From Girardia tigrina (lineage: Eukaryota): DNA of 61,103 bases. The stretch spans positions 1-61,103 of the forward strand of contig MQRK01225642.1 of NCBI GenBank assembly GCA_001938485.1, given 5' to 3'. Every line of letters begins with the position of its first letter. Position 1 is the stretch's first letter. Positions 18,460 to 19,363 of this stretch are shown here, piece after piece. The notes under the pieces were generated by a model, which worked only from the letters and a program-made list of their open reading frames with translations, had not been told where the DNA came from and searched no databases. Both the position numbers and the translations under genes were made by a program.

Positions 18460-18790
18460 GAGATAGGGTATTGTATTACTAGAAAAGAACTATTAGCAAT
18501 TCATTACTTTACACAACATTTCAAACACTATCTATATAGAAAACAGTGTACACTACGCACTGATCATAAAGCTATAACGTAAAAGACAAAAAAACAATTA
18601 CATCCACATTTCAGACATGGTTAAATTTTTCAAGTAGCCTGGATATGAAATTGGAATATTGAAAGGGGGTACTTCATTCTAATGCAGATGGACTATCCCG
18701 GAACAAATGTGGAACATGCAATCACTGCCAACTACAACATCCTGAAGCCAAAACTGAAAAAATGAAGACCAAAATATTAGTATTAGAGTC
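18460..18790 (+). pseudogene. Ty3/Gypsy RNase H and CxxCxxC linker remnant
   Basis: GYCITRKELLAIHYFTQHFKHYLYRKQCTLRTDHKAIT...QTWLNF..LDMKLEY*KGVLHSNADGLSRNKCGTCNHCQLQH. Confidence 0.92.
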
Positions 18791-18794
18791 AGTT

Positions 18795-19363
18795 ACAGAT
18801 TTGTCAGCCCTATACTGGATAATAAATATCTTACATAGGCAACGATATCCCAAAATGAACTGTATATTTATTTGGGGAGAACCCAATTGTGGAAAATCAA
18901 TTTTATTGCAAACTTTAAATTGTGATTTAGAAACAGGGATTATTTTACCCATGAAAAAGTATAGTTCTAATTTTTGATTACAAAATATAGTGAACCAAGA
19001 ATGTTATGTACAAGAAGAGGCCAGAATTAACGACGACAACATTTAGGAATATTTATTACTGATGGAAGGAAATAAAAATTTGCTAACAGATATAAAAATG
19101 AAAAAAGCAGAATGCTTAAAAAACAACCAGTAATTATGACGTCTAACATTCCACCACCGCTATATGTCATTCATTATACAAATGCCTTAAAAAACAGATG
19201 TATGACAATCAATATGAAAACGGAATTCAAGCCATGCGTTCGAGATATAAATTACCTTATAGAGGAAGCTGCTTTTCATGACATTAAAAGATTAATGATT
19301 TTATGTTTAATTAATTTTTTAAATTATATTCATGATGTTTTACGTTTGAAATATGCTAAATAA
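18795..19363 (+). pseudogene. Endogenous viral SF3 helicase (papillomavirus E1 / parvovirus NS1-like)
   Basis: PKMNCIFIWGEPNCGKS (Walker A, 18876-18899), SNF*LQ (F[W]LQ), CYVQEE (Walker B, 19014-19019), LLLMEG..TDIKMK (B'), then after a frameshift near 19110 PVIMTSN (motif C) and ALKNR (arginine finger). Stops at 18975 and 19044. Confidence 0.9.

What the first reader, a model, noticed from the sequence alone, without database searches (positions are those of the whole stretch)
18460..18977. Gypsy RNase H runs in frame into the viral helicase, in place of the integrase
Seen: from 18663 one open frame reads KGVLHSNADGLSR-NKCGTCNHCQLQH-PEAKTEKMKTKILVLESV-TDLSALYWIINILHRQRYPKMNCIFIWGEPNCGKS. The Gypsy RNase H end and linker are therefore fused on the same strand and frame to the SF3 helicase, with the junction near 18790-18805. 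Established: in Gypsy pol the integrase follows here, and LTR retroelements can capture viral RNA by RT template switching. Inference: either viral mRNA was retro-captured, which would explain the endogenisation, or a chimeric RT-RH-helicase-Rep element exists. An in-frame join has about a 1-in-3 chance by accident.
Basis: partly seen in the sequence, partly recalled or inferred. Interest (0 to 1): 0.75.

Follow-up and report, generated by a model that had tools for sequence, protein, structure and literature searches.

The report
Chance Gypsy–virus join, dead element
A broken scrap of a jumping gene sits in frame against a cut-off helicase gene of a decayed virus-like element; the join is real but likely a one-off DNA accident, not a working hybrid.

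Summary
The frame is real. Window 18663-18977 is one stop-free run of 104 codons. Gypsy RNase H-end and linker sequence reaches about 18800, and an SF3 helicase starts at about 18801. Contigs of two runs bridge the join without an indel.

It is not a working chimera. The run lies between two stops, most of the RNase H piece is in another frame, and the Gypsy piece is a 350-base scrap cut at both ends. The helicase lacks about 100 N-terminal residues and has two stops and a frame change. A break-free run this long has a chance of about 0.4-0.6 here. Only one contig per run covers the stretch right of the join. No integrase of this family, LTR pair, polypurine tract or poly(A) follows.

The viral part is a helicase gene followed by a probable CRESS-type Rep, like the planarian PEVE/PIVE elements. 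Best reading: a DNA-level join (deletion or break repair) among dead elements, about 0.72. Capture by reverse-transcriptase template switching is not excluded (about 0.2).

The parts
13387..14030 (+). Decayed Gypsy reverse transcriptase remnant, several frame changes; same strand and order as the RNase H piece, possibly the same copy
   Evidence: Profile of 10 Gypsy relatives matches 13387-14007; frameshift-tolerant score 258 against a null maximum of 48 in 29 tiles
14713..14895 (+). Probable hAT-type (Spin-doc) zinc-finger remnant
   Evidence: Pfam zf-C2H2_12 E 0.013, below cut-off
17266..18127 (+). Probable broken hAT-type transposase piece, cut off mid-gene
   Evidence: Family label recalled from motifs in the translation; no Pfam hit; repeated in runs X1, X2, X3
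18448..18800 (+). Gypsy RNase H C-terminal part plus RH-integrase linker (CxxCxxC); cut at both ends, one frame change near 18580-18590 and one stop at 18660-18662
   Evidence: Pfam RT_RNaseH E 3.7e-9, profile positions 39-89 of 105; positions 633-756 of a 1135-position family profile; other copies diverge left of 18448 and one runs on past 18800
18663..18977 (+). The 104-codon stop-free run across the join; first ATG at 18762; Walker A at 18876-18899
18792..18806 (+). Junction zone
   Evidence: Gypsy hits end at 18791-18803, closest helicase hits begin at 18801-18810; bridged by contigs in X1 and X2
18801..19363 (+). 5'-truncated stand-alone SF3 (NS1/E1-like) helicase pseudogene; stops at 18975 and 19044, frame change near 19095-19120
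   Evidence: 50% identical to P0002 residues 104-208 and 39% to 201-282; Pfam Parvo_NS1 E 5e-7; iE 3.5e-11 to the L006 helicase; N-terminal part not found in the window
19364..19438 (+). AT-rich gap between the two viral genes, with AATAAA at 19359 and 19406
   Evidence: GC 0.19; motif scan
19439..20600 (+). Probable CRESS-type Rep pseudogene (endonuclease motifs, then a second Walker A near 20200), many breaks; right end approximate
   Evidence: Pfam Viral_Rep E 0.0055, below cut-off; PPV_E1_C E 0.004 at the P-loop; L007 Rep pairwise E 0.005 and score 46, reached by 2 of 86 null tiles and 3 of 100 shuffles; motif names recalled
21179..21187 (+). TAGTATTAC, the recalled circovirus/nanovirus origin nonamer; possible decayed origin, unproven
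   Evidence: Only match in the window, 0.65 expected by chance; hairpin not better than shuffles, z 0.49

Best explanation
The join is real DNA at what is likely a single locus, and it most likely arose at the DNA level among dead elements, with the shared frame being chance. A PEVE/PIVE-like virus-type element (stand-alone SF3 helicase gene, then a probable Rep gene) likely entered the germ line as DNA, in or beside an old Gypsy copy. A deletion, or end-joining of a 5'-cut viral molecule at a break, then removed the Gypsy integrase side and the first 100 or so helicase codons and put the two stumps together. Both sides have since gathered stops and frame changes, and no functional fusion protein is predicted. 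Shown: the coordinates, both truncations, the breaks, the bridge in two runs, and the absence of integrase, LTR pair and helicase 5' end in the window. Inferred: single copy, order of events, DNA-level route.
For: Gypsy piece is cut on its left too (18448) and lacks the start of RNase H. A second orphan RNase H scrap of the same kind lies at 43505-43666 on the minus strand, so such scraps recur here. The helicase is cut inside the region that aligns to AAV Rep40 (P0002 72-219 aligns; the window keeps only 104 onward). Five breaks in 915 bases make the open run unremarkable. One unbranched 2.1-kb contig per run, and no other contig in 18832-18967, while the Gypsy side is covered at summed depths in the thousands. 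The viral piece holds two genes and an AT-rich gap with AATAAA, and ends without poly(A), polypurine tract or LTR. A separate contig matches three viral pieces in the same order, one in the helicase gene and two in the Rep-like gene (table 5), which hints at another copy of the unit. Liu et al. 2011 (PMC3198968, passages) describe Rep-like viral DNA inserted into host genes or transposons and the integrated planarian element PIVE.
Against: Same strand and a clean join without visible filler also fit template switching; Whitfield-type data (10.1101/127498, passages) show LTR elements next to RNA-virus EVEs share polarity in 543 of 614 cases. The collinear RT remnant upstream means the Gypsy copy may once have been whole up to the join. 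A plain nested insertion would leave the integrase downstream and none is found, so a deletion has to be assumed. Contig depth is not a copy number by the tool's own warning, and 535 pieces and 338 loose ends were not shown. The nonamer is a weak, after-the-fact lead.
Confidence: 0.72

Rival explanations
1. Retro-capture: Gypsy reverse transcriptase switched template onto a viral transcript in the RH-integrase linker, the hybrid cDNA integrated once, and the 3' LTR was lost later.
For: Same strand, join within a few bases with no visible filler; RT remnant upstream in order; precedent for RNA viruses in 10.1101/127498 and PMC5177903 (passages).
Against: No LTR pair, polypurine tract or poly(A) in the window; the piece spans two genes and a gap with AATAAA signals; in the nodavirus precedent both LTRs, PPT, PBS and integrase are still there; DNA viruses of this kind integrate without a retroelement (PMC3198968, PMC6880638, passages).
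Confidence: 0.2
2. A once-mobile chimeric element in which helicase and Rep replaced the integrase, of which this is a decayed copy.
For: Order RT, RH, helicase, Rep on one strand and an in-frame join.
Against: 0 of 79 database hits span both halves; no relatives in viral or metagenome contigs or among 221 longer candidates (a weak search); one contig per run; helicase cut inside its conserved region; open run at chance level.
Confidence: 0.03
3. The Gypsy scrap is an insert inside the viral element, replacing the helicase 5' end, with 18130-18447 as the viral left end.
For: The scrap (353 bases) is about as long as the missing helicase part (about 300 bases); an inverted match 18168-18243 to the region near 20930-21000 beat 100 shuffles.
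Against: That match is AT-rich noise: 16 of 156 unrelated window tiles score as high; the upstream RT remnant suggests the scrap belongs to a resident Gypsy copy.
Confidence: 0.04
4. Assembly artefact.
For: Repeat-rich window with assembly gaps.
Against: Contigs of two runs bridge the join, and another bridges the left end of the Gypsy scrap with no differences; both runs are of one study, so they are not fully independent.
Confidence: 0.01

Closest known systems
[quoted passage not shown]
   Same: Integrated element that encodes both an NS1/E1-like helicase (PIVE_1p) and a CRESS-like Rep (PIVE_3p); the window has a helicase then a probable Rep.
   Different: The window copy is 5'-truncated, broken, and shows no terminal inverted repeats.
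PEVE (planarian extrachromosomal virus-like element); L006 and L007 fit its description, identity inferred and not confirmed by accession
   Same: L006 encodes a 227-residue stand-alone helicase (P0015) that matches the window helicase at iE 3.5e-11 and falls in the same half of the tree; L007 encodes a Rep-like protein with a borderline match to the window's second gene.
   Different: In L006/L007 the two genes are on separate segments that share a terminal repeat; in the window they are adjacent. The window helicase is closer to unnamed P0002/P0091/P0092 (50-53%) than to P0015 (37%). Other L006/L007 ORFs have no match in the window.
LTR-captured endogenous viral elements (eBxnv-1 in a Bel/Pao element; Aedes EVEs beside Ty3/gypsy)
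   Same: Viral sequence on the same strand as, and abutting, LTR-element pol sequence.
   Different: Those derive from RNA viruses; eBxnv-1 keeps two LTRs, PPT, PBS and integrase and is transcribed. None of these marks is found here.
Endogenous densoviruses / parvoviruses
   Same: SF3 helicase hits Pfam Parvo_NS1.
   Different: Closest relatives are 220-285 residue proteins with no endonuclease domain; all 15 rows of 530 residues or more lie in the other half of the tree; no capsid gene was recognised.

Membership tests
Functional chimeric LTR element (RT-RH-helicase-Rep) | Continuous reading frame from RT through RNase H into an intact helicase | tested here: not met
   Stops at 18660, 18975, 19044 and frame changes near 18585 and 19110; RT remnant 4.4 kb away and frameshifted
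Functional chimeric LTR element (RT-RH-helicase-Rep) | Several copies carrying the same join | tested here: inconclusive
   One unbranched contig per run and no second contig in 18832-18967 point to one locus; no whole genome was held and depth is not a copy count
LTR-captured EVE (template switching) | Viral piece on the same strand as the LTR element | tested here: met
LTR-captured EVE (template switching) | Flanking LTR pair, polypurine tract, target-site duplication | tested here: not met
   7 direct-repeat matches span the locus, none with TG...CA ends; no purine tract in 18801-24500; window only, later loss cannot be excluded
LTR-captured EVE (template switching) | Captured piece shaped like one mRNA (ends at a poly(A) site) | tested here: not met
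   Piece runs through AATAAA signals into a second gene; no A-run of 9 or more in 18401-21400; the real transcript map of the virus is unknown
LTR-captured EVE (template switching) | Microhomology between Gypsy and viral templates at the switch | not testable with these tools
   No close natural copy of the helicase 5' end at DNA level was obtained
PEVE/PIVE-like elements | Stand-alone NS1/E1-like SF3 helicase without endonuclease domain | tested here: met
   Closest relatives are 220-285 residue helicase-only proteins; match to L006 helicase; tree half with SH-aLRT 95, quick tree, midpoint root. The window's own 5' end is lost, so this rests on relatives
PEVE/PIVE-like elements | Separate CRESS-like Rep gene | tested here: inconclusive
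   Viral_Rep E 0.0055 below cut-off; borderline to L007 Rep; no match
PEVE/PIVE-like elements | Terminal inverted repeats | tested here: not met
   Only AT-rich chance arms; the left end is lost at the join, so the test is weak
Parvoviridae EVE | NS1 with endonuclease fused to helicase, plus capsid gene | tested here: not met
   Helicase groups with short helicase-only proteins; no capsid hit in six frames of 15000-31500
Ty3/Gypsy pol | RT-RH-linker-integrase order in relatives, RH and linker homology in the window | tested here: met
   P0019 has RVT_1, RT_RNaseH, Integrase_H2C2; 11 invariant columns over the linker in 8 rows

The most novel reading that the evidence does not exclude
This is the fossil of a once-mobile hybrid in which a Gypsy element traded its integrase for the helicase and rolling-circle Rep of a PEVE-like DNA virus, translated in frame from pol.
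Probability: 0.03. Interest if true: 0.8.

Novelty: new member of a known kind. Interest (0 to 1): 0.18.

Why it matters
As it stands the join matters little: it is a likely chance contact of two dead elements. The modest value is the viral piece, a further fossil of the little-studied PEVE/PIVE-type elements with helicase and probable Rep side by side, plus a clade of unnamed helicase-only relatives (P0002, P0091, P0092, P0003, P0004). If retro-capture were proved it would extend template-switch capture from RNA viruses to a DNA-virus transcript; I found no such case in searches, which cover only the held open-access library.

Tried and rejected
No whole genome was held, so copies were judged from run contigs only.

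Searches for a protein or locus with both halves found none: 221 longer candidates, weak by the tool's note; 0 of 79. One search gave 3 viral loci on a 27-residue match; L001 was read and is an unrelated phage-like contig, L002 and L003 were not read. Searches found nothing; one search gave two parvovirus-like contigs at 28% (L004 read).

Rep-like gene: no relative; single-sequence fold was useless (pLDDT 36.5) and was not searched; the atlas gave no hit for 20371-20742. An early idea that the second P-loop is a packaging ATPase was dropped for lack of any hit.

The 860-base direct repeat 4015-4873 / 22388-23261 (91%) was considered as an LTR pair and rejected: no TG...CA ends, four unequal partial copies, one embedded in a longer tandem unit. 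The integrase remnant near 27990-28400 was considered as the missing 3' part and rejected: profile iE 0.67, and not among the six best tiles for the family's integrase. Terminal inverted repeats rejected.

Expression: no RNA holder listed; not used as evidence. A 151-base contig of run X3 (other organism label, RNA only guessed, depth 2.5) is identical to 19344-19494; not interpretable. A joint 18242 to 20983 in X1 has a 21-letter side in AT-rich sequence and was not counted.

Earlier scan notes: nothing. Rebrikov et al. 2002 is not held; the two-segment, two-helicase description of PEVE is partly recalled. Figure 5B of PMC3198968, which shows PIVE's layout, could not be seen.

Full report
Observation. 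Against seven Gypsy relatives its first 39 residues hold 11 invariant columns, including the CxxCxxC linker, after which the relatives go on into the integrase. Gypsy matches end at 18791-18803; the closest helicases begin at 18801-18810. One contig in run X1 (18757-20887) and one in X2 (18763-20804) bridge the join, and a contig 18367-18570 bridges the left end of the Gypsy piece with no differences. Both runs belong to one study. In X2 the three listed indels, all in the Rep-like gene, account for all 13 gap letters, so the join and the helicase frame change are the same as in the window.

The run is not a gene. It starts after a stop at 18660, has its first ATG at codon 34 and ends at a stop at 18975, before Walker B. 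The Pfam RNase H match (profile positions 39-89 of 105) lies in another frame. Between 18448 and 19363 there are two breaks on the Gypsy side and three in the helicase. At that density a break-free interval of at least 312 bases across a fixed point has probability about 0.49, or 0.39-0.60 for six to four breaks. The Rep-like gene was left out of this count because the runs differ from the window there. Together with the 1-in-3 chance of the frame, nothing here needs selection.

The Gypsy side. A profile of 10 relatives covers only positions 633-756 of 1135 at 18439-18803. Other copies in the runs diverge from the window left of 18448, and one X2 contig matches to 18800 and runs on for about 200 unlike letters. 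The piece is thus a 350-base scrap cut at both ends. A frameshifted RT remnant lies at 13387-14030 on the same strand (score 258, null maximum 48 in 29 tiles), with probable hAT debris in between (label partly recalled) and about 100 residues missing. It may be the same copy. No integrase of this family is found in the window. The integrase remnant near 28 kb matches only at iE 0.67 and looks like another lineage. A second orphan RNase H scrap lies at 43505-43666 on the minus strand. Seven direct-repeat matches span the locus and none has LTR ends; no polypurine tract or poly(A) follows the viral piece.

The viral side. Of 79 hits among 1.84 billion representatives, 8 match the Gypsy half and 71 the helicase half; none spans both. 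The best, P0002, is a 285-residue helicase-only protein; the window holds its residues 104-282 and nothing like its N-terminus. P0002 residues 72-219 align to AAV Rep40, so the cut falls inside the conserved region. In a quick tree of 75 rows (Gypsy hits, P0001 and cluster members P0081-P0090 left out) the window groups with P0002, P0091 and P0092 (SH-aLRT 90, unstarred) in a half of 40 proteins of at most 414 residues; all 15 proteins of 530 residues or more fall in the other half (midpoint root, and short entries may be fragments). That half includes P0015, encoded by L006, a 1911-base segment with terminal inverted repeats shared with the 5699-base L007, which encodes a Rep-like protein. 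This pair fits PEVE as described in PMC3198968 (passages; supplement search and part 13 of file 1), where the small-segment helicase groups with PIVE_1p and the large-segment Rep with PIVE_3p of the integrated Schmidtea element PIVE. The identity of L006/L007 is inferred; the original paper is not held.

Downstream, 19439 to about 20600 is probably a broken CRESS-type Rep: Viral_Rep E 0.0055 (below cut-off), a second P-loop near 20200, and a borderline match to the L007 Rep (pairwise E 0.005; 2 of 86 null tiles and 3 of 100 shuffles reach the score). Several other tests found nothing, so this label is probable, not firm. An AT-rich gap with AATAAA at 19359 and 19406 separates the genes. TAGTATTAC, the recalled origin nonamer, occurs once in the window, at 21179 (0.65 expected), without a significant hairpin; it is a lead only.

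Copy number. Right of the join only one contig per run covers 18832-18967, unbranched over 2.1 kb, while the Gypsy side has summed depths in the thousands. Several near-identical copies would be expected to break such a contig. Depth itself is not a copy count, and many table rows were not shown. A separate contig matches 19017, 19502-19556 and 20142 in order, which hints at a diverged second copy of the helicase-Rep unit; whether it is integrated or touches Gypsy is unknown.

Mechanism. Most likely (0.72) the virus-like element entered as DNA in or beside an old Gypsy copy, and a deletion or end-joining event fused the two stumps; the frame is chance. The truncations, breaks and absences are shown; single copy, route and order are inferred. 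Template-switch capture (0.2) has same-strand polarity and precedent for RNA viruses (10.1101/127498 and PMC5177903, passages) but lacks LTRs, polypurine tract and an mRNA-shaped insert; DNA viruses also integrate with no retroelement involved (PMC3198968, PMC6880638, passages). A mobile chimera (0.03) has only the gene order for it. Microhomology could not be tested because no close natural copy of the helicase 5' end was obtained.

Verdict. Observation confirmed, interpretation partly supported. The join is ordinary debris; the viral piece is a likely new member of the PEVE/PIVE kind. Searches showed no paper on a Gypsy-SF3 helicase fusion, within the held library only. PMC6186406 and PMC9241645 (passages) only cite PEVE. 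Interest 0.18.

Noticed in passing
window 27990-28400 (+): Decayed integrase remnant (zinc finger and core start); Pfam Integrase_H2C2 E 0.022. Looks like a Ginger or other Gypsy-type lineage (label recalled), not the partner of the RNase H scrap.
   Followed up: partly
window 21297-23261, 4015-4873, 1613-1926, 43343-44704: Repeated coding-like unit, tandemly duplicated at 21.3-23.3 kb, with a 194-codon open run at 21318-21902; no Pfam hit. Family unknown.
   Followed up: partly
window 52443-55370 (-): 975-codon open frame, low complexity with a helical-looking C-terminal part, no Pfam hit; probably a host exon.
   Followed up: no
window 43505-43747 (-): Second orphan RNase H scrap of a related Gypsy family.
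   Followed up: partly
window 8131-8511 (+) and 37210-37563 (-): DDE_3 (Tc1/mariner-type) transposase fragments; the second lies inside inverted repeats 36906-37112 / 39557-39762.
   Followed up: no
window 20464-20735: The 3' end of the viral region is matched by further contigs in X1, X2 and X3; a 124-codon open run at 20371-20745 has no Pfam or atlas hit. Could be other viral copies or an unrelated repeat.
   Followed up: partly
window 20870-21275: Diverged repeats of about 106 bases in AT-rich DNA around the TAGTATTAC nonamer; possibly a decayed viral non-coding region.
   Followed up: partly
window 18242 and 20983: An X1 contig joins these two places, skipping 2740 bases that hold the Gypsy scrap and the viral genes; its short side is only 21 AT-rich letters and a 20-base direct repeat lies nearby. 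Likely chance; an allele without the insert is not excluded.
   Followed up: no
window 19344-19494: Identical 151-base contig in run X3, which carries another organism label and is only guessed to be RNA.
   Followed up: no
P0002, P0091, P0092, P0003, P0004: Unnamed helicase-only proteins on contigs of 1.3-4.7 kb; may be segments of free PEVE-like viruses. Their genomic context could not be fetched.
   Followed up: partly
window 15089-15625 (+): 178-codon open run without Pfam hit, beginning with a duplicate of the acidic stretch that follows the zinc-finger remnant at 14800.
   Followed up: no
window 2608-3261 and other places: The window holds runs of N (assembly gaps).
   Followed up: no
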